Shown: piece by piece, positions 1-9,841 of the stretch | Position numbering within the stretch: the first letter of the stretch is position 1 | How the letters are laid out: every line of letters begins with the position of its first letter | Sequence record: NC_031113.1 | Strand: one strand, 5' to 3' | From: Escherichia phage Gluttony | DNA: 44,513 nt | Notes under the pieces: model-generated | What the model saw: the letters and a program-made list of their open reading frames with translations, nothing else | What the model was told of the DNA's origin: nothing | Databases searched by the model: none | Made by a program: the position numbers and the translations under genes

Positions 1-127
1 ATGCCGCTGGTGGCCTTAACCTCGTAGGTCCATACGGCATCGATCACATGCTCGCGGAAGTCGGGACCGGACTTCACCTTGCGCTTGCCTACCATGATAA
101 TATCGCCGCGGTCTATGGTATTGGCAC
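1..127. repeat. 127-bp terminal direct repeat, identical to 44387..44513; likely assembly overlap of a circular or permuted genome
   Basis: First 127 nt of the window match the last 127 nt base for base; a minus-strand ORF reads through this junction. Confidence 0.9.
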
Positions 128-344
128 TAAACAAGCCGGTACGCATGAGCAAACCTTGCGGTATACAACTGCGCCCGCCTGCTTGCCCTTCAAGGTACAT
201 GCCCGCAAACATTTCGCCCAGCACACCGACCAGTCGGCTTTGCTTGCACGCGTCGGACTTTAAGCGCCATTGGTCAAACTCGATGCTTGCTACCATTGCC
301 GCCAGGTGGAATTGTTTACCGGATATTTCATATTCGCCGTACAT
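1..344 (-). CDS. 5' part of a wrap-around gene (start codon at 344) encoding a putative PD-(D/E)XK-like nuclease-fold protein, about 191 aa in full
   Basis: Hand translation of the minus strand is open from ATG at 344 down to position 1 and in frame with the ORF at 44155..44481 through the repeat; GAGGA RBS before the ATG at 344; in-frame stop at 381-383; D...EVK-type motif (GDIIMVGKRK...VIDAVWTYEVKATSG). Confidence 0.5.
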   Translation of the reverse strand, partial: MYGEYEISGKQFHLAAMVASIEFDQWRLKSDACKQSRLVGVLGEMFAGMYLEGQAGGRSCIPQGLLMRTGLFSANTIDRGDIIMVGKRKVKSGPDFREHVIDAVWTYEVKATSG

Positions 345-386
345 CGTGTGGTCCTCATTGATGCGGGCCGAAGCCCGCGATTAGAA

Positions 387-965
387 TTATTTCAGTGCGC
401 TACGTACCAGTGTTTTTTCCATGTTGCGGAAGTCTTCCGGCGTCATGAGGATTTTGGACCCATCCTCTCCAGTGAGCACGACCATAGGCTGGACGTCCTG
501 GGCCGCTACGCCGAAATTGGCGGCTTTGACAGTCTTCCCGAACGAGGCCACCACACCTTCGGCAACGCGCATCGCACTGTTATACGCATTAATCTCGCCA
601 TCTAGTCGTACGGACAGGTCTTTGAGGCTGTCGAATTGTGCTGCCGTTGTGTCGATCTGGATCTCGTCATGCACGGTCATGTACGACTCGCCCAGCAGTG
701 CGGCATATGCTACCAGGTCAACGATGTTATCGTCCTGGTGCTTACGGTGCTGGCGTACCAGCTTCAGGCAGATCAAGAAGGTCCAGGCTTCTTGCTCGGT
801 CAGGTCGCGACCGGTAAGCGCGTTAAACACGTCAGCGATCTGTTTAGCGCTACGCTCTTCTTTCGCGTTGTCATAGCCGTTTTCTTTTCCGCGCTGTTCC
901 ATAGTGGTGGCGGCGTTTTTGCAGTATTCGTATGCTTTCATTATGTGGTCCTTTTTAGGGGCCAT
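387..965 (-). CDS. Hypothetical protein, 192 aa (alternative start at 941)
   Basis: ORF track; helical, charged sequence; function not recognised. Confidence 0.5.
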   Translation of the reverse strand: MAPKKDHIMKAYEYCKNAATTMEQRGKENGYDNAKEERSAKQIADVFNALTGRDLTEQEAWTFLICLKLVRQHRKHQDDNIVDLVAYAALLGESYMTVHDEIQIDTTAAQFDSLKDLSVRLDGEINAYNSAMRVAEGVVASFGKTVKAANFGVAAQDVQPMVVLTGEDGSKILMTPEDFRNMEKTLVRSALK

Positions 966-1470
966 ATCGCCCCGACGAGTTAACTATAGTGCAACCAATA
1001 GGTTGGTTGCAAGTAAATTTTGCAACGTTTATCGCATAAATTTTCGAGACCAGATCGCTGCACGCCCGTCGAATGGCCGCGATGTTCTTCGGGCAGTCTT
1101 CAATGATGACCAGTTCCGATACGTCCGCATAGCAGACCATTTTGAACACGGCGCACGCTTTAAACTCTGGCGGCGGGGTATCGTCCAGCATGTGGCGCAT
1201 AAACAACCGGCCTACGGGGAATACTTCCAATTGCTCGACGGTAGTCTCCCAGCATTCTCGCTGCCGGTTGGTCAGATACGCGATCTCGAAGCCTTGCTCT
1301 TTGTACATGGTCAGCAGCGGCAGCATATCCATGTTCAGATCTTCGCGTATATGCGCTTTGTGCCACTTCGCCCAAAAGGTGGATTTTGTTTTTATACCTG
1401 GCACCAGGTCGGCACGCGCATCGCTTGAACCATTAATAACGCCATCAAGATCACAAATCAGTAGTTTCAT
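955..1470 (-). CDS. HAD-superfamily phosphatase-like protein
   Basis: N-terminal LICDLDGVI matches the HAD motif I (DxDG) pattern. Confidence 0.5.
   Translation of the reverse strand: MKLLICDLDGVINGSSDARADLVPGIKTKSTFWAKWHKAHIREDLNMDMLPLLTMYKEQGFEIAYLTNRQRECWETTVEQLEVFPVGRLFMRHMLDDTPPPEFKACAVFKMVCYADVSELVIIEDCPKNIAAIRRACSDLVSKIYAINVAKFTCNQPIGCTIVNSSGRYGP
984..1012 (-). promoter_or_regulatory. Sigma70-like promoter (TTGCAA-17-TATAGT) inside the palindrome TTGCAACCAATAGGTTGGTTGCAA
   Basis: -35/-10 spacing read on the minus strand; contains the recurring ATTGGTTGCA motif; lies inside the 3' end of the upstream ORF. Confidence 0.4.
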
Positions 1471-1691
1471 TTTAATTCCTCAACCAAATCCGAACGAACA
1501 ACTCTGGCGGAAAACTTGTTACACACAAGATGCCAATTTGCGGTTATGACAAGCCAGCCGGTAAGGTCCAGACCCAGGATATATTCTGGACGTGACACTC
1601 GCTTCACACGATCGCGGCGCGGATCGATGTTATAGTCTCTTTGCATTCGGTCTACTACCGCAGGGTCGCGGTCAACGATTAAGATATTCAA
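1467..1691 (-). CDS. Hypothetical protein, 74 aa
   Basis: ORF track; overlaps neighbours in operon fashion. Confidence 0.35.
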   Translation of the reverse strand: MNILIVDRDPAVVDRMQRDYNIDPRRDRVKRVSRPEYILGLDLTGWLVITANWHLVCNKFSARVVRSDLVEELK

Positions 1692-2157
1692 GGAGTTCTC
1701 CTTCGCTCATTATTTCAATTTGTGCGCTGCCGGTTGGTGGCGCTTCGTCAAATATTATCAATTGCTGGCACTTGTTATTGCTCGGCCCGACTTCACCGGT
1801 GACAGCGTGTATAAATCTCACCCGCCAGTCCAGAAGAATTATCATATTGGCAGTCTTCCGGGCCAACTTCGCCCACTTCGTCGACGTGTCCTGATTCAGT
1901 AGCATGACAGTCCGGCGACCGTGCGCTGCGCATTCCACCCACGGCAGCGGGTCGGAATACGGCGGATTGCACCACTTCCACCCTTTCAAATCAGCCCAGT
2001 CCACATCAAGCGCGCTATGTTCTGCTGTGAAGTAACGCGGTAGCAGGTGGTTGGCATCGCTTGCCGCCATATCGTAACGGAATCGGTATTTCCGACGAAG
2101 CGGTTTGAATAAAGCTGGCGGCGTGCGCCAGCTATCTTTTTGCTCACTCTTCTGCAT
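1672..2157 (-). CDS. Phage DNA N6-adenine methyltransferase (Dam-like)
   Basis: WRTPPALF and CNPPY motifs typical of the phage Dam family. Confidence 0.8.
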   Translation of the reverse strand: MQKSEQKDSWRTPPALFKPLRRKYRFRYDMAASDANHLLPRYFTAEHSALDVDWADLKGWKWCNPPYSDPLPWVECAAHGRRTVMLLNQDTSTKWAKLARKTANMIILLDWRVRFIHAVTGEVGPSNNKCQQLIIFDEAPPTGSAQIEIMSEGELLEYLNR

Positions 2158-2608
2158 GACCTGGATCTATCGCGTATAAAGGGACTTTATTGCCGGTTTT
2201 CATAACGCGCTGGACGCGCTTTGACTCCTCGGCGCTCATTGGGCGCATATCAGTGCTATAACCACCGTTTGATGTGTGCCGCCACGCTATCAGCACCAGA
2301 TCTTTCCGGTCGATCTTAGACTGGCGGCCCTTCGGTCGCACGTACGCCTCGGCCCGTTTGCAATGCTCGCGCAGACCTTCGGCAGTGATGCGGTTTAGCG
2401 CGACGGTGGTTGTGTACCCGGTGCGCTGCATAATACCCATCAACCCATACAGCAGTTCGAAGCGCTCCTCTAACTCCTTGCGCATCTTTTCCTCGCCTTC
2501 ATAGCTCGCCAGGTAGGTATCCGCCAGCGCGTTCGCCCGTTCGACCTGTTCGCGGGCTTCGAGGCATTGCGCGGCCCAGTAATTTTTCTCTTCTTGTAAA
2601 ATTTTCAT
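2144..2608 (-). CDS. Hypothetical protein, 154 aa
   Basis: ORF track; coiled-coil-like N-terminus. Confidence 0.45.
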   Translation of the reverse strand: MKILQEEKNYWAAQCLEAREQVERANALADTYLASYEGEEKMRKELEERFELLYGLMGIMQRTGYTTTVALNRITAEGLREHCKRAEAYVRPKGRQSKIDRKDLVLIAWRHTSNGGYSTDMRPMSAEESKRVQRVMKTGNKVPLYAIDPGHAEE

Positions 2609-2655
2609 CGTGTTGTCTCCAGGTATTAAAAAGGGCGTCCAAACCGGACACCCTC

Positions 2656-2684
2656 AATATAAGGCAACCAATATGACTATGCAA
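2656..2684 (-). promoter_or_regulatory. Sigma70-like promoter (TTGCAT-17-TATATT) built from two ATTGGTTGC motif copies
   Basis: Read on the minus strand upstream of the ATG at 2608. Confidence 0.4.
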
Positions 2685-2689
2685 CCAAT

Positions 2690-3013
2690 TTACGCATAAA
2701 AGTTCGGGTCGCGTGCAACGTCTACCAGGTAAAGGTTGCTTATGCGGTTGCCGTAGTGCCCTGGAGTGCGCTGGCGGCACACAACGGCGAAGCCTGGAGG
2801 GATTGTATTGCCCGTCTCAATAATCCACGCCACGCGTGCGCCAGACAGCGTCTTGCCGTTGTATTCGATACGTGTTCCGCCATCGGCGGTATTGAGGTTG
2901 CCAATTTTGCAGCCGGTGGACTTCAGACGAATGACGCCGGTTTTGCTGTCGTAGGAGAATAACTGGTTAGTCATTGCAACCGAAAAATCGATGGCTTCGA
3001 ATGAAGTATTCAT
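2690..3013 (-). CDS. HNH_3-like (NUMOD-type) endonuclease-like protein, possibly degenerate
   Basis: RVAWIIETGNTIPPGF...NRISNLYLV resembles the HRLVW...IDH...NLRLV pattern, but the catalytic D-H is not evident. Confidence 0.45.
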   Translation of the reverse strand: MNTSFEAIDFSVAMTNQLFSYDSKTGVIRLKSTGCKIGNLNTADGGTRIEYNGKTLSGARVAWIIETGNTIPPGFAVVCRQRTPGHYGNRISNLYLVDVARDPNFYA

Positions 3014-3705
3014 TTTAAATTTTCCTCGTTAACCGCTATCGCGAAGCCGCGCGGAGTGAGCGACCGGATTAATTTTGTGCGGGCTGATTTGCCTCCGAGG
3101 CGACTATACTGCTTCGAGTACCCTTTTTCAACGAAAACAGGTCTCTTCTCTGGCATACGGAAGCCGTTGCCGGTCCATAAGCAGGTCAGCTTCGGATATG
3201 AATCGCGGGCGTTGATGTATTCCGGGAAGAGCGGGTGTACGTCATCCTCCGGCAGATATCCCCCATACTCCCACGGGTCGAATGAGTGATCCGGCTTGCG
3301 CCACTGGGTGGAAAGCACACTGCGCGGATTCTCAATCATATACGGCACTTCGAAGAAGTCACCCAGGTACGCGGCGATCTTCGCGGTGCGCACCGCCTTA
3401 AGCTGGAAGGCCGGGTCGCGGGCGCGTTTGCGCGGGAAAGCTGGCGCACCGCTCACCGCCAGATCAGTACACGGCGGGAATGCGTAGATGATATCTGGCG
3501 TACCGAAATCGCCATTCATCGCGCGGTCTACAAAGTCCAGATCAATAAACTCATTGCGATATCGGATCCCGCGACCATAAATCCGGTAGTCCAGGTACGA
3601 CCCGTGATCGGCTTCGGAGTAGTTAAAACAGTAGCACTTATGCCCCATCTCGGCAGCACGCTCAATCATCAAGCCGCTGCCGTCAAACAATGACCAGATT
3701 ATCAT
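3010..3705 (-). CDS. DNA cytosine-C5 methyltransferase-like protein, short at 231 aa
   Basis: Motif I-like LFDGSGL, PC motif FPPCTDLAVSGA, ENV-like IENP. Confidence 0.5.
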   Translation of the reverse strand: MIIWSLFDGSGLMIERAAEMGHKCYCFNYSEADHGSYLDYRIYGRGIRYRNEFIDLDFVDRAMNGDFGTPDIIYAFPPCTDLAVSGAPAFPRKRARDPAFQLKAVRTAKIAAYLGDFFEVPYMIENPRSVLSTQWRKPDHSFDPWEYGGYLPEDDVHPLFPEYINARDSYPKLTCLWTGNGFRMPEKRPVFVEKGYSKQYSRLGGKSARTKLIRSLTPRGFAIAVNEENLK

Positions 3706-5126
3706 TTGCGCGCCTTCTTAGCTTTCATGTATTCCATCAAGTCGTCCTGAATATCCCGCTTACTGTCGCGACGCTCGGCGACCAGTTCGTCCAGTGTTCC
3801 GCGCGCCTGGATAATGTAGACGAATACCGGTCGAGGGTGCCCGGCCTGCATCTGGCGAACCGGCCCGATACGCTCAACGATCTGCGAAAAGTGCTCAAAG
3901 TTCCAGGTATCGGAGAAGATTGCCAGGTGATGACCGCCGTCCTGCAAGTTAAGGCCGTGGCCTGCCGATGCCGGGTGTGCAAACATGATGGGGATCTCAC
4001 CCCTGTTCCACGCTTCCATATCCTTATTGCCCTGCTTACCTTTACCCAACGCAACGCCGTGCGGAAATTTCTTCTTAAGTCGTGCCAGGTCATGCTTATA
4101 CTGATACGCAACGAGCAACGGCGCGCCGTTCAACTCCTCTACGATACTCTCCAGCGCGTCCAGCTTCGCGTCGTGAATCTTCACCCACTCGTCGGTCCGT
4201 TCGCCGTCTTCGTCCACCTTATACACGGCCCCGGATGCAAGCTGAAGGCACTTAATTGTCTTCGACGCCGCGTTCGCCGCTTCCACTGTTCCGCTTTCCA
4301 GTTCTGCAAATAGCTCGCTTTCAAACTGGTCATAAATCTTACGCGCTTTCTTCGGCAGGTCCACAACAACCGGCGTATAGATTGGCTTGTCGCACCCGAA
4401 GTATTCCGCCGCGTCAACGGTGAGGGATACATCTGACAGACGTTGTTGTATCTCTTTCTCGGAGTTCTTTAGCGGAGCGTGCTGCATAGTGAAGCTGCTA
4501 GGCTTAACAGGCTTGCTAATGAACCAGCGGTCGGTAAATGCCTTATAGCTACTGCCGAGGCGTTCGCCACCGTCGACAAACCACGTCTGACCCCATAAGT
4601 CTTTTAGCCCGTTTGGCGCTGGTGTGCCGGTAAGGTTAATCCAGCGCTTGACGTGTTTATGTGCAATCGCTGCCAGTGCGCGGGCGCGCTTGCTCCCCTG
4701 CTTGCTACGATAGCCTTTCAGCTTAGTCGATTCATCGGCAACAACGACCGTAAAGGGCCACGCATCGCCGTAATAGTCGACCAGCCACTCAACCACATCA
4801 TAGTTAACACAAACCACGTTAGCGTCGCTCTCCAGCGCTGCAATGCGGTCCTTCTCTGGACCAGTGCCGTCTACTACCAGCAGGGCTGGGAAGCGCCATT
4901 TCTCCTGCTCCGGGGGCCAGGTGCCGGACGCAACGCGCAGCGGGGCCAGCACCAGTACGCGGTCCTCCTGGTTGGACAGGATACCCGTCTGGAACATTTT
5001 ATTCAGCGCCCACATTGTCGCGCCGGTTTTACCCGATCCCATTGTCGCCCATATATTACATCGCTTATGCTTGAGGATGAACGCGGTTATCAACTTCTGA
5101 TATTCGCGGCGTCGGAATCGTGCCAT
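3702..5126 (-). CDS. Superfamily II (SNF2/DEAD-like) DNA helicase
   Basis: Walker A MGSGKTG, DEST box, helicase C motif HPASAGHGLNLQ; start placed at MARF (5126) after a GGCGGA RBS. Confidence 0.8.
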   Translation of the reverse strand: MARFRRREYQKLITAFILKHKRCNIWATMGSGKTGATMWALNKMFQTGILSNQEDRVLVLAPLRVASGTWPPEQEKWRFPALLVVDGTGPEKDRIAALESDANVVCVNYDVVEWLVDYYGDAWPFTVVVADESTKLKGYRSKQGSKRARALAAIAHKHVKRWINLTGTPAPNGLKDLWGQTWFVDGGERLGSSYKAFTDRWFISKPVKPSSFTMQHAPLKNSEKEIQQRLSDVSLTVDAAEYFGCDKPIYTPVVVDLPKKARKIYDQFESELFAELESGTVEAANAASKTIKCLQLASGAVYKVDEDGERTDEWVKIHDAKLDALESIVEELNGAPLLVAYQYKHDLARLKKKFPHGVALGKGKQGNKDMEAWNRGEIPIMFAHPASAGHGLNLQDGGHHLAIFSDTWNFEHFSQIVERIGPVRQMQAGHPRPVFVYIIQARGTLDELVAERRDSKRDIQDDLMEYMKAKKARK

Positions 5127-5130
5127 ATCT

Positions 5131-5364
5131 TTATTCCGCCTTTTTCCAGACTTCAGTTTCACTGTTCCAGTTCCTTTTTGTGGCGTCGTAGTTGGTGGCG
5201 TGTCCGACGTGGACACCGGTAGCCCGGAAGCTCTTAAATTTTTGCCAGCACACCGTCAACGGCAGCGGATCATTCATGCCTGCGATAAACCATACGCGAT
5301 CGCCCGGTTTACATTCGCCCAGCTTGGTGAGTCGGTAATGTTCTTTCATCGTCATGTCTCCCAA
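5131..5364 (-). CDS. Hypothetical protein, 77 aa
   Basis: ORF track. Confidence 0.4.
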   Translation of the reverse strand: MGDMTMKEHYRLTKLGECKPGDRVWFIAGMNDPLPLTVCWQKFKSFRATGVHVGHATNYDATKRNWNSETEVWKKAE

Positions 5365-5392
5365 AAATGGCGGGACAAGCCCGCCGTATTAA

Positions 5393-5566
5393 TTATTTTT
5401 GTTCTGCACGGTAGCGGCGCTGCCGTTCGCGCTCTTTTTTATTGCGGCACGATTTGCACTCTGCCCGATACCCGTCTGGACTTCGCGCAGTCTTACCGGT
5501 GTATTTGTGGAACTGGGATAGCGGCTTTACACAGCCGCAATTACTACAACGTTTTTCTTCAATCAT
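5393..5566 (-). CDS. Small zinc-ribbon protein
   Basis: CSNCGC...CKSC cysteine pairs; start at MIEEK with a GAGGA RBS. Confidence 0.45.
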   Translation of the reverse strand: MIEEKRCSNCGCVKPLSQFHKYTGKTARSPDGYRAECKSCRNKKERERQRRYRAEQK

Positions 5567-5606
5567 CTCTAAAATCCTCGATATGGCTAACCGGCACACT
5601 ATACCG

Positions 5607-5885
5607 CTATGCGACCAATTCAGCAACCAATAAATCACAGTCGGCTATGCTGTCGATAACGCGAACGTCCGCACCGCGGCGGGCCATTCGCTCATGTTCT
5701 CGTACCTGGTGCGGCTTAGGTTTACCGCCTGGGCGCTTCACTTCGACGAAAACTATCTTGCCGTTGATGATGATAATCAGATCGGGCGCGCCTGCGCGCC
5801 CCTCCCACGCCACTTTACGGCAGAATCCGCCAACCTCTTTAACCCGTTTCATAAGGTGACGCTGCACCTTGCCTTCTGGTGTCAT
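5607..5885 (-). CDS. VRR-NUC domain nuclease
   Basis: VFVEVKRPGGKPKPHQ...E motif; ATG overlaps the upstream stop (ATGA). Confidence 0.7.
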   Translation of the reverse strand: MTPEGKVQRHLMKRVKEVGGFCRKVAWEGRAGAPDLIIIINGKIVFVEVKRPGGKPKPHQVREHERMARRGADVRVIDSIADCDLLVAELVA

Positions 5886-6514
5886 TGTCGGCTTTTCCTT
5901 ACGGCAGCGATGGCAGGTCCGATAAACTTCTTCATTTCGTCCGGGGTAAACCGATCCCCGCGGGCTATGTTGCACTCTACGCAGCACGGCACGCAGTTAT
6001 CTTTCGTATGGCCTACTGCGTTGTCGAGTCGGTCCGCGCCATTGTCGCCGGTGAATCCGCAGTATGCGCACGGCTGAGAAGTAAGGCGCAGCACGTCCTC
6101 TGTAGTAAGGTCGGTGTTTAGCCCCTTCCTTTCGTCTGCCTTACGGTACTGAAAGAGTTTATAGTAAGCGCGGATCTCTGGTGTCCGGTGGTTGTACTCG
6201 CGGCGTGACTTATTAGCGCACGATCGGCATTCTTTACGAATATGTGACCCGTTTGCTTGGCTTCCTGGCCGGAAGTTTTCCGGCGTGAGCGGCTTGCGCT
6301 CACCGCACGTACGACATGTTACGATCTCCCCGGTGTACTCTCGCCATACTTCTCTCGGCGGCGCGCCTCTTTCCTTATCCCGTCTCTCTTTCTTATATGC
6401 CGCCATGCATTTGGCGCACCACGACTGGCCCTTGTTGAAAGCGGACTCATCTTTACCCGTATTACAACGCCCACAATGTTTCATATACACCTCGAAAAAG
6501 AAAACGCCAGACAA
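5882..6514 (-). CDS. HNH endonuclease with N-terminal zinc-finger repeats
   Basis: CAYCGF...GH...N..CCVECN HNH-type motif. Confidence 0.7.
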   Translation of the reverse strand: MSGVFFFEVYMKHCGRCNTGKDESAFNKGQSWCAKCMAAYKKERRDKERGAPPREVWREYTGEIVTCRTCGERKPLTPENFRPGSQANGSHIRKECRSCANKSRREYNHRTPEIRAYYKLFQYRKADERKGLNTDLTTEDVLRLTSQPCAYCGFTGDNGADRLDNAVGHTKDNCVPCCVECNIARGDRFTPDEMKKFIGPAIAAVRKSRQ

Positions 6515-6550
6515 TAATGCCCAACGTTTCCGCTAAAAGCAACATTTCCG

Positions 6551-8842
6551 CTACTTGCGGTAGCGATACATGCAATCGCCCTCTGCGGCAAGTGGGAAGC
6601 CTTTCGCCCAAATAGGCAGGTCGCACATCAGCGCGCAAAGCTCCTCTGTCGTGTAGTCGTCGGTGTCCGGCACTTCTGTGATCAATTCATCATGCACCGA
6701 TAGAACGATTTCATAGCCCGCAGCTTCAACGCCAGGCATTGACCAGGCGAGAATATCACGGCACAACGCCTGTACTATGTTCTCCGTCAGTTTGCCGCCG
6801 TAGGTATACTGGAAGCCCCACTGGCGCGTCGTCTGATTCTCGCCCTGATATTTAATGCGGGTGCTGGTGCGTTTCTTGCCGGTATCTTCGTCGATCTCGG
6901 TCGTCACTGACAGCGCAATGCCTGGATAACTCATAATACGCCCCGACGGCAACTCAATTTTCAACCACCACCCCGCGGCGTTCGGGTCGTCGCGTTCCTC
7001 GTCGAAGGTTGGGTCATGCTTCGCCTTCGTGCGGACTATCTTGAGCGCTTTCTTACCATCCGGGCGAACGTTCGCGCCAGCCCAGTACGCTTTGCCAGGA
7101 TTGCGGATTGCACACAACACCGCGTCCTCAAGCTCGGCCCAAAAGGCTACCGTCTTCGGGTGAGCCTCGCGCCACATGCGTTTAATCGCATCACACGTAA
7201 GCCATACGTTTTTCGGCAGTATGTAAGTCGGGCGCTCGTCCTTCTTGCCAGGCTTTGGCGGTCGCTTCGCTTCGTTAATGCGGGCGTACTCATAACCCCG
7301 TTTAGCCGCTGCCCAAATGTGATCGGGGAATGTGCCCTTCATGACGTCCGCCATCGCGTAAAGGTCGAGGCCCAGGTTTTTAGCGAACTGCAAGAACGCC
7401 GCGACGCCGCCACCATAGCCCAGCCCCAATTCGCACGCCTTACCGATCTGGCGTAAGTCCTTGCGGTTAGCTTTAATGTAGTCCGGGTCCAGGCCGAACA
7501 TCTTACCGGCAGTCTCACAATAGATATCGCGACCGGCCTTAAACACCATTAGCGCGGTTTTCTCGCCTGCGATCCAGGCAAGTCCACGCCCTTCCACGTT
7601 GGAGTAGTCCGCTACGACAAACTTCTTGCCCTTAGCCGGGATAATGCACCCGCGAACGGTCGAGGCTGTTAGCTTAGATATGTCATACGCCCAGTGCGCG
7701 GTCCCGCGTAACAGGGAATTGATGCCGTTGGTGAGCATGTGCGACCGGACCCAAAAAGCAACGTCGCTCTCGCCTTCGCGGCGCTTAATCTTCCCTTCGT
7801 GATCGTCGCTATACTCGCCGCGTGCCAGGTTTTGAGGCTGGAAGCCTTTACCCGCCCAGCGCAGCGTGCGCTTTGCACCACCATACTGAAGACACCCACG
7901 GCGGCGACCATCTGCGGATAAGCCGTTAACTAGCGGATTGTACTTAGTCGATGCCGTTGATGACGCTCCGAGGCGCATTTCTATAAGCGCTTTGCCTTCG
8001 TCGGGGAAGTCCGGGTCTTCAAGCAGGTCGTTAAGTGTGGATTTCTGCGCGTTGTGGATCGTGAACGCCGGGGCGATATCACGTAGGATTGGCAGGAAGT
8101 CATTGCCGGTCAGCTTACCGCCAAATCGCTCCCAGGCTTCCTCTTTCAATTCTTCCTTATGCGCCTGTACCGCTTTGATCGCAGCGCGCGCCAGGTCAAC
8201 GTCCACGTAGAAGCCGCGGTCGTTAATCAATTGGTCGATAAGCAGGATTTCGTCTTCCTTCGGCGTATTACCCCAGTCCGGTATGCGCCAATAGACTTCC
8301 CTCATCGCGATGATATCCAGCGCGGCATAGCGCAGGAATTTAGCCCACTCCTCGGGGTGCGTCTTGCGCGTGTAGCGGCGGATTTTGTAGGTCTTAGGGG
8401 TAGGCTTACAGAATCGTTTAATCAGCGCCTTGCCTGCCTTATCCTTCGCGTGCTCTGCGTCAACGCCCAGCACCTGACACTGCATATCGAGGCTACCCGG
8501 CAGCGCGTGCCGAAAGGCCATAATCATGGTATCTTCGATCTGGCTTACCGGCAGATCTATACCCCACTTCTCGCGAATAACAAGGCGGTCAAACAGGAGG
8601 CCGTTAGCCATCACTATTTTTGCTTTCTTGCGGGATACACGGCGGAGTGCCTTGCGCAGTTCACGCGGCATTGTTGGGGATTCAGTGGCATCCCATGTCT
8701 GCACGCGGCCTTCGTCGATGGCGTAGGTGCAAATCATAATCTCGGTGGTTTGGTGCTCTGCGTAGGCGTACGCCCCTACTTTCTTCAGGTCCACCCCGCT
8801 AAATGTCTCGGTGTCGAGAAACAGACGTTCGAAGTCTTTCAT
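6551..8842 (-). CDS. Family A DNA polymerase with 3'-5' exonuclease domain
   Basis: Exo I LDTETFS; motif A DYSNVEGR; motif B RKDLRQIGKACELGLGYGGG; motif C VHDE. Confidence 0.9.
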   Translation of the reverse strand: MKDFERLFLDTETFSGVDLKKVGAYAYAEHQTTEIMICTYAIDEGRVQTWDATESPTMPRELRKALRRVSRKKAKIVMANGLLFDRLVIREKWGIDLPVSQIEDTMIMAFRHALPGSLDMQCQVLGVDAEHAKDKAGKALIKRFCKPTPKTYKIRRYTRKTHPEEWAKFLRYAALDIIAMREVYWRIPDWGNTPKEDEILLIDQLINDRGFYVDVDLARAAIKAVQAHKEELKEEAWERFGGKLTGNDFLPILRDIAPAFTIHNAQKSTLNDLLEDPDFPDEGKALIEMRLGASSTASTKYNPLVNGLSADGRRRGCLQYGGAKRTLRWAGKGFQPQNLARGEYSDDHEGKIKRREGESDVAFWVRSHMLTNGINSLLRGTAHWAYDISKLTASTVRGCIIPAKGKKFVVADYSNVEGRGLAWIAGEKTALMVFKAGRDIYCETAGKMFGLDPDYIKANRKDLRQIGKACELGLGYGGGVAAFLQFAKNLGLDLYAMADVMKGTFPDHIWAAAKRGYEYARINEAKRPPKPGKKDERPTYILPKNVWLTCDAIKRMWREAHPKTVAFWAELEDAVLCAIRNPGKAYWAGANVRPDGKKALKIVRTKAKHDPTFDEERDDPNAAGWWLKIELPSGRIMSYPGIALSVTTEIDEDTGKKRTSTRIKYQGENQTTRQWGFQYTYGGKLTENIVQALCRDILAWSMPGVEAAGYEIVLSVHDELITEVPDTDDYTTEELCALMCDLPIWAKGFPLAAEGDCMYRYRK

Positions 8843-9009
8843 TGCTTTATCCTCACTACGGCGTCAGCGCTGCCGATCATGGAGAAGATGCCGTCTGACA
8901 GGGCAATCTCTTCGCCGTTGTTGCGAATCTCGGCAACTGTGAAATATTCCCCCAGTAGCTTAGACCATACTTTCATTCCGACTTTTACTTCGCTGGCTTT
9001 AATCCGCAT
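8840..9009 (-). CDS. Small hypothetical protein, 56 aa
   Basis: Hand-translated ORF (MRIKASEVKVGMKVW...) with an AGGA RBS; its stop overlaps the polymerase start. Confidence 0.3.
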
Positions 9010-9020
9010 TTTTCATTGTC

Positions 9021-9049
9021 CTATTAAAAAGCCCGCATTAAGCGGGCTT
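9021..9049 (-). terminator. Rho-independent terminator after the SSB-like gene
   Basis: 8-bp GC stem AAGCCCGC/GCGGGCTT followed by a T-run on the minus strand. Confidence 0.6.
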
Positions 9050-9067
9050 GAATAGTGGGCTTTGCCC

Positions 9068-9841
9068 TTAACGGCGGCGACGTTTACGTGGCGCTTCGTC
9101 TTCGTCGTCGTCCTCATCTTCGTCATCGCGTGGTTTACGACGTTTGCGAGGTTTTTCGTCGTCGTCGTCATCGCTGCGCTTGGACTTTTTGGACTTACGC
9201 GGCTTGTCGTCTTCGTCATCGTCATCACGACGTTTTGACTTTTTGGACTTACGCGGGCTTTCATCTTCGTCATCGTCGCCCAGGTCTTCGTCGGAACATG
9301 AAGACCCGCCACCGCCGAAGGCTTCTCCGTCATCGCGGAAGCGCATACCCAGCAGACCACAGCCTAAGCCTTTGCCGTTGGTATTGTTCCAGGCCCAAAT
9401 ATCTAAGGAAACGTTGCAATAGCAACCGGAATAGATTTCCTTCCCTTCGATTTCGTCGCCGTCGATGGTCAGACCCTGCTCCGTCTGCTTCTCGCCTTCG
9501 GAAGTCTGGATGATCGGCTGTTTGAATGATTTGGCATTGATGTACAGCTTTCCTTCAAACTCTTCCGTCACTTCTTCACGCTCGTCACCATCACGAACTG
9601 CACATTCTTTCGAATCCTGTGCGTAGTGGCGGTCCATCCACTTATCGGCGTTCTTTTCAGACTTCAGCTTTTCGGTGAGCACTGCGCGTGCCGCCGCTTC
9701 CACTTTGTCCACCTGCGGATCTTCTTTATCAAGAATAATCACCGCACGATATGCCGGTTTTTGTCCATCCTGTTTAGGGGTGTCACGCTCCCAAATTTTC
9801 GGGAAGCATACACGTACATTTTTCAGGTTGACTTTAGCCAT
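9068..9841 (-). CDS. Phage ssDNA-binding protein (DUF2815-like) with alternating acidic/basic C-terminal repeats
   Basis: MAKVNLKNVRVCFPKIWE N-terminus with GAGGAA RBS; C-terminal DDDEDE/PRKSKKSKR repeats. Confidence 0.55.
   Translation of the reverse strand: MAKVNLKNVRVCFPKIWERDTPKQDGQKPAYRAVIILDKEDPQVDKVEAAARAVLTEKLKSEKNADKWMDRHYAQDSKECAVRDGDEREEVTEEFEGKLYINAKSFKQPIIQTSEGEKQTEQGLTIDGDEIEGKEIYSGCYCNVSLDIWAWNNTNGKGLGCGLLGMRFRDDGEAFGGGGSSCSDEDLGDDDEDESPRKSKKSKRRDDDDEDDKPRKSKKSKRSDDDDDEKPRKRRKPRDDEDEDDDEDEAPRKRRRR

What the first reader, a model, noticed from the sequence alone, without database searches (positions are those of the whole stretch)
1672..3705. Cluster of DNA modification and nuclease genes with a short C5-methyltransferase-like protein
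Within 2 kb lie a Dam-like adenine methyltransferase, a degenerate HNH_3-like protein lacking an evident catalytic D-H, and a 231-aa protein with C5-methyltransferase motifs I, IV and VI but a non-canonical motif I (GSGL) and short length. Either an active minimal cytosine methylase or a catalytically altered relative would matter for host restriction evasion.
Basis: partly seen in the sequence, partly recalled or inferred. Interest (0 to 1): 0.4.

Follow-up and report, generated by a model that had tools for sequence, protein, structure and literature searches.

The report
Known short phage cytosine methyltransferase cluster
This stretch of an already sequenced E. coli phage carries an adenine methylase, a dead HNH-nuclease remnant and a very short cytosine-5 methylase whose family is widespread in phages and already shown to be active, so it is ordinary.

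Summary
The window is a Dhillonvirus genome, 100% identical over its first 8 kb (the part searched) to Escherichia phages Lust and Pride. All three genes named in the finding exist, on the minus strand.

- **Dam, 1672-2157:** a clear match to Pfam PF05869, with an NPPY motif.
- **HNH-like protein, 2690-3013 (107 aa):** it has an I-HmuI-like HNH fold, but the catalytic Asp-His is replaced by Val-Cys. It is nevertheless under strong purifying selection.
- **Short methylase, 3010-3705 (231 aa):** no Pfam or NCBIfam hit, but it belongs to a large phage family (phrog_757). That family has at least 2864 protein clusters and occurs in 1510 of 50,697 phage records.

The methylase model is confident, and its best structural matches are all DNA cytosine-5 methyltransferases. 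It keeps FxGxG, the Pro-Cys catalytic motif and ENP (for ENV), and has almost no target-recognition domain.

It is 54% identical over its full length to the Dcm-like gene of phage KarlJaspers. The counterpart gene of the closely related phage K42 was reported to put 5mC on retron Ec86 msDNA and to trigger that defence. It is therefore most likely an active minimal methylase of a known kind. Its target sequence has not been determined.

The parts
3010..3705 (-). 231-aa short DNA cytosine-5 methyltransferase (phage 'Dcm-like' family, phrog_757). Its start overlaps the helicase stop by 4 nt, and its stop overlaps the start of the next gene by 4 nt.
3673..3687 (-). Motif I, F7-D-G-S-G11 (FxGxG, SAM-binding loop)
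   Evidence: Aligned to FSGAGG of M.HaeIII.
3448..3480 (-). Motif IV, F76-P-P-C79-T-D-L-A-V-S-G86, with the predicted catalytic cysteine C79
   Evidence: P77, P78, C79 and T80 are invariant in 32 relatives. Aligned to PPC of M.HaeIII. Corresponds to C82 of K42 Dcm.
3325..3333 (-). Motif VI, E125-N126-P127 (ENV variant)
   Evidence: Invariant in the family. Corresponds to E128 of K42 Dcm.
3166..3192 (-). Motif VIII-like strand, K172-L-T-C-L-W-T-G-N180. This is not the canonical QxRxR.
   Evidence: K172, T174 and W177 are invariant. It forms strand E174-179 in the model. K172 corresponds to K175 of K42 Dcm.
3046..3099 (-). C-terminal conserved block, LGGKS...TK.IRSLTPRG (residues 203-220), the probable fused motif IX/X equivalent. 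Only about 22 residues separate it from motif VIII, so there is no canonical-size target-recognition domain.
   Evidence: Invariant columns L203-K206, T210, K211 and I213-L216, P218-G220. Helices 208-214 and 219-229. The assignment to motifs IX/X is inference.
2690..3013 (-). 107-aa catalytically degenerate HNH_3 / I-HmuI-like protein. VVCRQ (residues 77-81, nt 2771-2785) replaces the D-H catalytic dyad.
2144..2608 (-). 154-aa protein of unknown function (phrog_10530). It is labelled 'DNA ligase' in some records without evidence, and its stop overlaps the Dam start by 14 nt.
   Evidence: No Pfam, NCBIfam or PADLOC hit. The RefSeq note reads 'Possible DNA ligase but no evidence'. dN/dS 0.21.
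1672..2157 (-). 161-aa phage Dam-type N6-adenine DNA methyltransferase, with DMAAS at residues 29-33 and NPPY at 64-67 (nt 1957-1968)
   Evidence: PF05869 E=4.2e-35. phrog_111 E=6.5e-55. PADLOC orphan MTase E=4.5e-11. 30% identical to the T1-like Dam of KarlJaspers. dN/dS 0.09.

Best explanation
This is part of the minus-strand replication and DNA-metabolism gene block of a Dhillonvirus coliphage. The order is DNA polymerase, VRR-NUC, SNF2 helicase, Dcm-like, HNH-like, p154, Dam, then a polynucleotide-kinase/phosphatase-like gene.

The 231-aa protein is an active, minimal, SAM-dependent DNA cytosine-5 methyltransferase of a large phage family. SAM is bound by the F7-x-G-x-G11 loop. Cys79 of the Pro-Cys motif attacks C6 of a flipped-out cytosine, and Glu125 (ENP) protonates N3. 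The large target-recognition domain of classical enzymes is reduced to a short loop.

Its target is probably CCWGG, like host Dcm, but this is inferred only from the K42 retron work. The expected benefit is protection of replicating phage DNA from 5mC-blocked restriction enzymes of the EcoRII type. A known cost is that such a methylase triggers retron Ec86/Eco1.

The 161-aa Dam-type enzyme methylates adenine. GATC as its target is inferred from family membership only.

The 107-aa HNH-like protein has lost the catalytic residues but is conserved, so it most likely acts as a small DNA-binding protein and not as a nuclease.

Shown here: folds, motifs, homology and selection. Inferred: activity of this particular protein, target sequences and biological role.
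For: - **Identity of the phage:**
- **Family size:** at least 2864 protein clusters and 1510 phage records.
- **Conserved catalytic residues:** F7, G9, G11, P78, C79, E125, N126 and R136 are invariant across 32 relatives down to 57% identity.
- **Link to Pfam:** 17 of 32 relatives hit PF00145 at E<=1, best 1.3e-6.
- **Experimental precedent:** phage K42 Dcm is a 711-bp gene with C82, E128, K175 and K176. It raises 5mC in Ec86 msDNA by LC-MS and triggers the retron, and a quadruple active-site mutant does neither (bioRxiv 10.1101/2023.08.16.553469). PMC12916289 restates that phage cytosine methyltransferase methylates the msDNA of retron Eco1, as that paper calls it, and activates the effector.
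- **Homology to that enzyme:** the 711-bp KarlJaspers orthologue is 54% identical over the full length. C82, E128 and K175 align to C79, E125 and K172 here.
- **Selection:** dN/dS among 7 Dhillonviruses is 0.06 for Dcm, 0.09 for Dam and 0.06 for the HNH-like gene.
- **Site counts:** CCWGG is not avoided in the genome, 161 observed against 168 expected.
- **Dam:**
- **HNH-like protein:**
Against: - The window protein itself has no Pfam, NCBIfam, PADLOC or PDB sequence hit.
- Motif VIII is K-L-T and not QxRxR.
- K176 of K42 is Leu173 here.
- The loop at the target-recognition position (residues about 181-202) belongs to a different subtype from K42/KarlJaspers: 'GYSxQ' against 'DNPGW'. Specificity therefore cannot simply be transferred.
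- The K42 work did not map the methylated site directly. It was done in a dcm+ host, which leaves the CCWGG assignment open.
- Dhillonviruses are described as sensitive to the restriction systems tested in the BASEL study. Any protection must therefore be narrow.
- No methylome data for a Dhillonvirus were found.
Confidence: 0.82

Rival explanations
1. The 231-aa protein is a catalytically altered or inactive relative. It might be a DNA-binding or decoy protein that keeps the fold but does not methylate.
For: It has no Pfam PF00145 hit. Motif VIII is non-canonical, there is no canonical target-recognition domain, and the GN of motif X is absent. Truncated or interrupted copies exist in some phages, such as the mckay frameshift and Shigella phage 1b.
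Against: The nucleophile Cys, ENP Glu and FxGxG are invariant across the family. A relative with the same architecture is reported to be active, and its C82A/E128A/K175A/K176A mutant is not. Purifying selection is strong, with dN/dS 0.06.
Confidence: 0.07
2. It is an active enzyme with a different chemistry or substrate. It might transfer a group other than methyl (for example carboxymethyl from Cx-SAM), or act on RNA or single-stranded DNA as Dnmt2 acts on tRNA.
Against: LC-MS on K42 Dcm detected 5-methylcytosine. The closest structural matches are DNA enzymes DNMT3A/B. No CmoA-like Cx-SAM synthase was noticed in the region.
Confidence: 0.05
3. Dcm-like, HNH-like and Dam form one functional module. 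The dead HNH protein might supply the missing DNA-recognition function of the methylase, or the set might act as a restriction-modification-like unit.
For: The Dcm-like and HNH-like genes overlap by 4 nt (ATGA) and keep their order in all seven Dhillonviruses compared. The methylase lacks a target-recognition domain. The HNH-like protein keeps an I-HmuI-like DNA-binding fold.
Against: Metagenomic relatives carry the HNH-like gene directly after the helicase with no Dcm gene (L013, L014). The Dcm family occurs in more than 1500 phage records, whereas the HNH-like protein has only 17 detectable relatives in 1.84 billion representative proteins. K42 Dcm works when expressed alone. Dam and Dcm are far apart in KarlJaspers.
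Confidence: 0.03

Closest known systems
Dcm-like C5 cytosine methyltransferase of Drexlerviridae phages K42 / KarlJaspers (Bas06, bas06_0055), the trigger of retron Ec86/Eco1
   Same: Same family and same length class (236 against 231 aa). 54% identical over the full length. Same catalytic Cys, Glu and Lys positions, and the same lack of a large target-recognition domain.
   Different: The loop after motif VIII differs: 'EKGYSKQYSR' here against 'KEDDKDNPGWAK' in KarlJaspers. K176 is Leu173 here. The genomic context differs. This protein has not been tested itself.
Catalytic domain of mammalian DNMT3A/DNMT3B
   Different: Only 12-17% identity. HMMER finds no PDB DNMT3 sequence at E<=10. There are no regulatory domains. 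DNMT3 works as a DNMT3L-assisted oligomer on CpG.
Classical bacterial C5-methyltransferases (E. coli Dcm/M.EcoRII type, M.HhaI, M.HaeIII; Pfam PF00145)
   Different: About 100-240 residues shorter. There is no canonical target-recognition domain. Motif VIII is not QxRxR and motif X is not GN. The window protein shows no Pfam hit for PF00145 at E<=0.1. hhalign to E. coli Dcm aligns only motif IV, at E=0.2.
Phage T1-type Dam (Pfam PF05869 / TIGR01712 phage N-6-adenine methyltransferase)
   Same: Strong PF05869 match and an NPPY motif. Homologous to the KarlJaspers Dam.
   Different: Shorter, at 161 against 233 aa. Below the TIGR01712 equivalog cutoff, 84.8 against 97.05 bits. Target not determined.
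HNH homing endonuclease I-HmuI / Pfam HNH_3
   Different: The catalytic D-H is V-C, DN is GN, the protein ends before the last metal-binding Asn, and the C-terminal DNA-binding domains are missing.

Membership tests
DNA cytosine-5 methyltransferase (Pfam PF00145 superfamily) | Class I SAM-methyltransferase fold with C5-methyltransferase topology | tested here: met
DNA cytosine-5 methyltransferase (Pfam PF00145 superfamily) | Motif I FxGxG (SAM binding) | tested here: met
   F7-D-G-S-G11. F7, G9, S10 and G11 are invariant in 32 relatives.
DNA cytosine-5 methyltransferase (Pfam PF00145 superfamily) | Motif IV Pro-Cys with the nucleophilic cysteine | tested here: met
   P78-C79 is invariant and aligned with PPC of M.HaeIII.
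DNA cytosine-5 methyltransferase (Pfam PF00145 superfamily) | Motif VI ENV glutamate | tested here: met
   E125-N126-P127 is invariant.
DNA cytosine-5 methyltransferase (Pfam PF00145 superfamily) | Motif VIII QxRxR | tested here: not met
   The sequence on the corresponding strand is K172-L-T174-C-L-W. Lys may substitute for Arg, but this is inference.
DNA cytosine-5 methyltransferase (Pfam PF00145 superfamily) | Target-recognition domain between motifs VIII and IX, plus motif X GN | tested here: not met
   Only about 22 residues lie between N180 and L203. The C-terminal block reads IRSLTPRG and not GN(A/S)V.
DNA cytosine-5 methyltransferase (Pfam PF00145 superfamily) | Score above the Pfam gathering threshold | tested here: not met
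   No hit at E<=0.1 for the window protein. 17 of 32 relatives hit at E<=1, best 1.3e-6.
DNA cytosine-5 methyltransferase (Pfam PF00145 superfamily) | Formation of 5-methylcytosine in DNA | not testable with these tools
   Reported only for K42 Dcm, whose KarlJaspers orthologue is 54% identical to the window protein.
Short phage Dcm-like methyltransferases (phrog_757) | Full-length profile match and length of about 225-250 aa | tested here: met
   phrog_757 E=5e-82 over residues 1-229. The family is mostly 226-250 aa long.
Phage Dam (Pfam PF05869) | Score above the gathering threshold and a (D/N)PPY catalytic motif | tested here: met
   121.4 bits against 28.1. NPPY at residues 64-67.
Phage N-6-adenine methyltransferase equivalog (NCBIfam TIGR01712) | Score above the curated equivalog cutoff | tested here: not met
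   84.8 bits against a cutoff of 97.05.
HNH_3 endonuclease (Pfam PF13392) | Score above the gathering threshold | tested here: not met
   13.1 bits against 24.8.
HNH_3 endonuclease (Pfam PF13392) | Catalytic Asp-His and the Asn residues of the HNH motif | tested here: not met
   D-H is replaced by V78-C79, D-N by G88-N89, and there is no terminal Asn.
HNH_3 endonuclease (Pfam PF13392) | I-HmuI-like fold | tested here: met

The most novel reading that the evidence does not exclude
The Dhillonvirus enzyme represents a subtype of the minimal C5-methyltransferase family that lacks a target-recognition domain. In this reading its target sequence is not CCWGG, or its specificity is relaxed. Its loop at the recognition position ('GYSxQ' type) differs from that of the only tested member ('DNPGW' type). 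Even for that member the methylated site was never mapped directly, and the work was done in a dcm+ host. How a 231-aa enzyme reads DNA sequence at all is unresolved.
Probability: 0.25. Interest if true: 0.35.

Novelty: already known. Interest (0 to 1): 0.15.

Why it matters
It matters little beyond correct annotation. In the deposited Lust and Pride records, the Dcm-like and HNH-like genes are 'hypothetical protein' and the Dam gene is annotated with a truncated start.

The practical consequences are modest. The phage probably carries 5mC and 6mA, which affects restriction sensitivity, cloning and nanopore basecalling. Its Dcm-like gene should also make it a target of retron Ec86/Eco1.

The remaining open point is general to the family. 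The recognition sequence is unknown, and so is how sequence is read without a target-recognition domain.

Tried and rejected
- Pfam, NCBIfam and PADLOC scans of the 231-aa protein gave no hit.
- A PDB sequence search with the single protein gave only a chance kinase hit at E=0.51. With the family profile it gave only M.HaeIII at E=0.68.
- hhalign of the family against E. coli Dcm aligned only motif IV, at E=0.2.
- Literature searches for a Dhillonvirus or Drexlerviridae methylome, or for a mapped target of this family, found nothing beyond the retron Ec86 work.
- The idea that the dead HNH protein is the methylase's DNA-recognition partner was rejected. Relatives of it sit after the helicase without any Dcm gene, and K42 Dcm acts alone.
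- The contig look-up for relative P0128 found nothing.
- The promoter and terminator scan of 1-9500 gave 7 promoter-like sites (6.3 expected from shuffles) and 17 terminator-like sites (11.5 expected, sd 3.1), with none placed so as to define the transcription units.
- Counts of CCWGG and GATC sites show no avoidance that could point to the targets.

Full report
**What the window is.** The first 8 kb are 100% identical to Escherichia phages Lust (KX534338) and Pride (KX534341). They are 90-94% identical to many other members of the genus Dhillonvirus, including Envy, mckay, SECphi18 and Sodalis phage SO-1. The finding lies in the minus-strand block of replication and DNA-metabolism genes. The order is DNA polymerase, a 210-aa Cys-rich ORF labelled 'putative HNH endonuclease' in some related records, VRR-NUC, SNF2 helicase, then the four genes of the finding, then a polynucleotide-kinase/phosphatase-like gene.

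**Check of the observation.** All ORFs are present as described.

- ORF 1672-2157 (161 aa) matches Pfam Dam PF05869 at E=4.2e-35, well above threshold. It also matches phrog_111 and PADLOC orphan-methyltransferase models, and has NPPY at residues 64-67. It is 30% identical to the T1-like Dam of phage KarlJaspers.
- ORF 2690-3013 (107 aa) reaches only E=0.075 on Pfam HNH_3, but E=2.3e-16 on phrog_99.
- ORF 3010-3705 (231 aa) carries FDGSG, FPPCTDLAVSG and ENP.

F-D-G-S-G fits FxGxG exactly, so that detail is wrong.

**The 231-aa protein.** It has no Pfam, NCBIfam, PADLOC or PDB sequence hit of its own. It does match phrog_757 'DNA methyltransferase' over its full length at E=5e-82.

The family is large. 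It has at least 2864 protein clusters in the metagenome-scale database. It is encoded in 1510 of 50,697 phage records, spread over Dhillonvirus, Drexlerviridae, Kagunavirus, Jersey-like phages, large myovirus-sized genomes (about 135-170 kb) and Klebsiella phages. Members are mostly 226-250 aa long.

In an alignment of 32 members down to 57% identity, the invariant columns include F7, G9, S10, G11, P77, P78, C79, T80, E125, N126, P127, W135, R136, K172, T174, W177 and the C-terminal block LGGK...TK.IRSL.PRG. Seventeen of the 32 members hit Pfam PF00145 at E<=1, with a best value of 1.3e-6. The family profile aligns weakly to M.HaeIII across motifs I-IV.

The fold and motifs I, IV and VI are therefore present. 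Motif VIII is K-L-T-C-L-W and not QxRxR. Only about 22 residues separate it from the C-terminal conserved block, so the large target-recognition domain of classical enzymes is missing. I read the C-terminal IRSLTPRG helix as the equivalent of motif X. That assignment is inference.

**Is it active?** A preprint on retron Ec86 isolated escape mutants of phage K42, which is 95% identical to KarlJaspers/Bas06. All of them disrupted, or carried a mutation just upstream of, a 711-bp 'dcm' gene. Expressing this Dcm alone raised 5mC in the retron msDNA, measured by LC-MS, and was toxic only with the retron present. A C82A/E128A/K175A/K176A mutant did neither (bioRxiv 10.1101/2023.08.16.553469). A later paper restates this finding for retron Eco1, its name for the system (PMC12916289).

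I fetched KarlJaspers (MZ501090). Its 711-bp gene bas06_0055, annotated 'Dcm-like C5 cytosine methyltransferase', is 54% identical to the window protein over the whole length at E=2e-86. C82, E128 and K175 align to C79, E125 and K172.

Among seven Dhillonviruses the gene has dN/dS 0.06, comparable to Dam at 0.09 and the helicase at 0.03. The protein is thus most likely an active member of a known, experimentally supported family. Related GenBank records already annotate it as a C-5 cytosine methylase.

**What is still open.** The target sequence is not established.

- The K42 study assumed CCWGG and showed only that mutating the CCTGG in the msDNA hairpin abolishes defence.
- That experiment was done in a dcm+ host whose own Dcm apparently left the msDNA poorly methylated.
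- The window protein belongs to the 'GYSxQ' subtype of the loop after motif VIII, while KarlJaspers has 'DNPGW'.

From general knowledge, a CCWGG target would fit growth on K-12, because CmCWGG is not an McrBC substrate. CCWGG (161 observed, 168 expected) is not avoided and GATC (173 observed, 207 expected) only mildly under-represented. The BASEL study describes Dhillonviruses as sensitive to the restriction systems it tested. Any protection must therefore be narrow.

**The HNH-like protein.** A full HMMER scan of 1.84 billion representative proteins found only 17 relatives. Those of normal length are true HNH_3 proteins. In the alignment their 'DH...DNR..NLR...N' motif corresponds here to 'VC...GNRISNLYL', and the protein then ends. 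Two short metagenomic relatives also have Cys at the His position.

It is not a dedicated partner of the methylase. In two metagenomic relatives the gene follows the helicase with no Dcm gene between them.

**The 'cluster'.** Gene order is conserved within Dhillonvirus. The helicase/Dcm and Dcm/HNH-like junctions overlap by 4 nt, and p154/Dam overlap by 14 nt, which suggests co-translation within one early or middle transcript. Outside the genus the genes are not linked. The cluster is ordinary synteny of a replication module, not a functional system.

**Verdict.** The feature is already known, and interest is low. The residual question is the target sequence, and how sequence is read without a recognition domain. 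That question applies to the whole family and is not special to this window.

Noticed in passing
window 2144-2608 (-): This 154-aa protein has a coiled-coil-like N-terminus and matches only phrog_10530. The 'DNA ligase' label appears in the 2009 Sodalis phage SO-1 record and several later ones, and RefSeq itself notes 'Possible DNA ligase but no evidence'. It has no Pfam, NCBIfam or PADLOC hit. Its dN/dS is 0.21, higher than its neighbours.
   Followed up: partly
window 2609-2689 (-): This 81-nt intergenic gap holds a G+C-rich hairpin followed by a T run, which looks like a terminator (GAGGGUGUCC...GGACGCCCUU UUUAAU). The whole-gap fold has a z-score of only -1.45. In phages Envy, mckay and BF9 the same position holds an extra 243-bp gene.
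   Followed up: partly
window 1672-2157 (-); L002 2172-2570: The GenBank record of phage Pride annotates the Dam gene as only 399 bp. The Pfam Dam match starts at residue 3 of the 161-aa ORF, so the deposited start is probably too far downstream.
   Followed up: partly
L009 3284-3919 (phage mckay); hit H84 (Shigella phage 1b): The Dcm-like gene of phage mckay is frameshifted near its 3' end (211 aa, losing the conserved LGGKS...RSLTPRG block). In Shigella phage 1b only the last 57 residues of the gene match, and a gene annotated 'putative homing endonuclease' lies under the match. These are either sequencing errors or natural loss of the methylase.
   Followed up: no
window 5393-5638 (-): This small Cys-rich ORF corresponds to a gene annotated 'Lar-like restriction alleviation protein' or 'kilA anti-repressor' in related records. 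It would be a second possible anti-restriction function near the finding.
   Followed up: no
hits H20 and H51 (MG065648 Campylobacter phage A144; MG065654 Campylobacter phage C15): One record labelled as a Campylobacter jejuni phage (A144) is about 91% identical to this coliphage region. Another (C15) carries a Dcm-like gene whose product scores like those of 135-139-kb Escherichia phages. Their host labels look doubtful.
   Followed up: no
hit H8 (PQ843332.1, 88.6 kb): This Dhillonvirus-like record is twice the normal genome length and contains two matching places in 14 pieces. It is probably a concatenated or chimeric assembly.
   Followed up: no
window 5882-6514 (-): This 210-aa ORF has several CxxC pairs. 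Its position corresponds to a gene variously labelled 'putative HNH endonuclease', 'restriction endonuclease' or hypothetical in related records. It was not examined.
   Followed up: no
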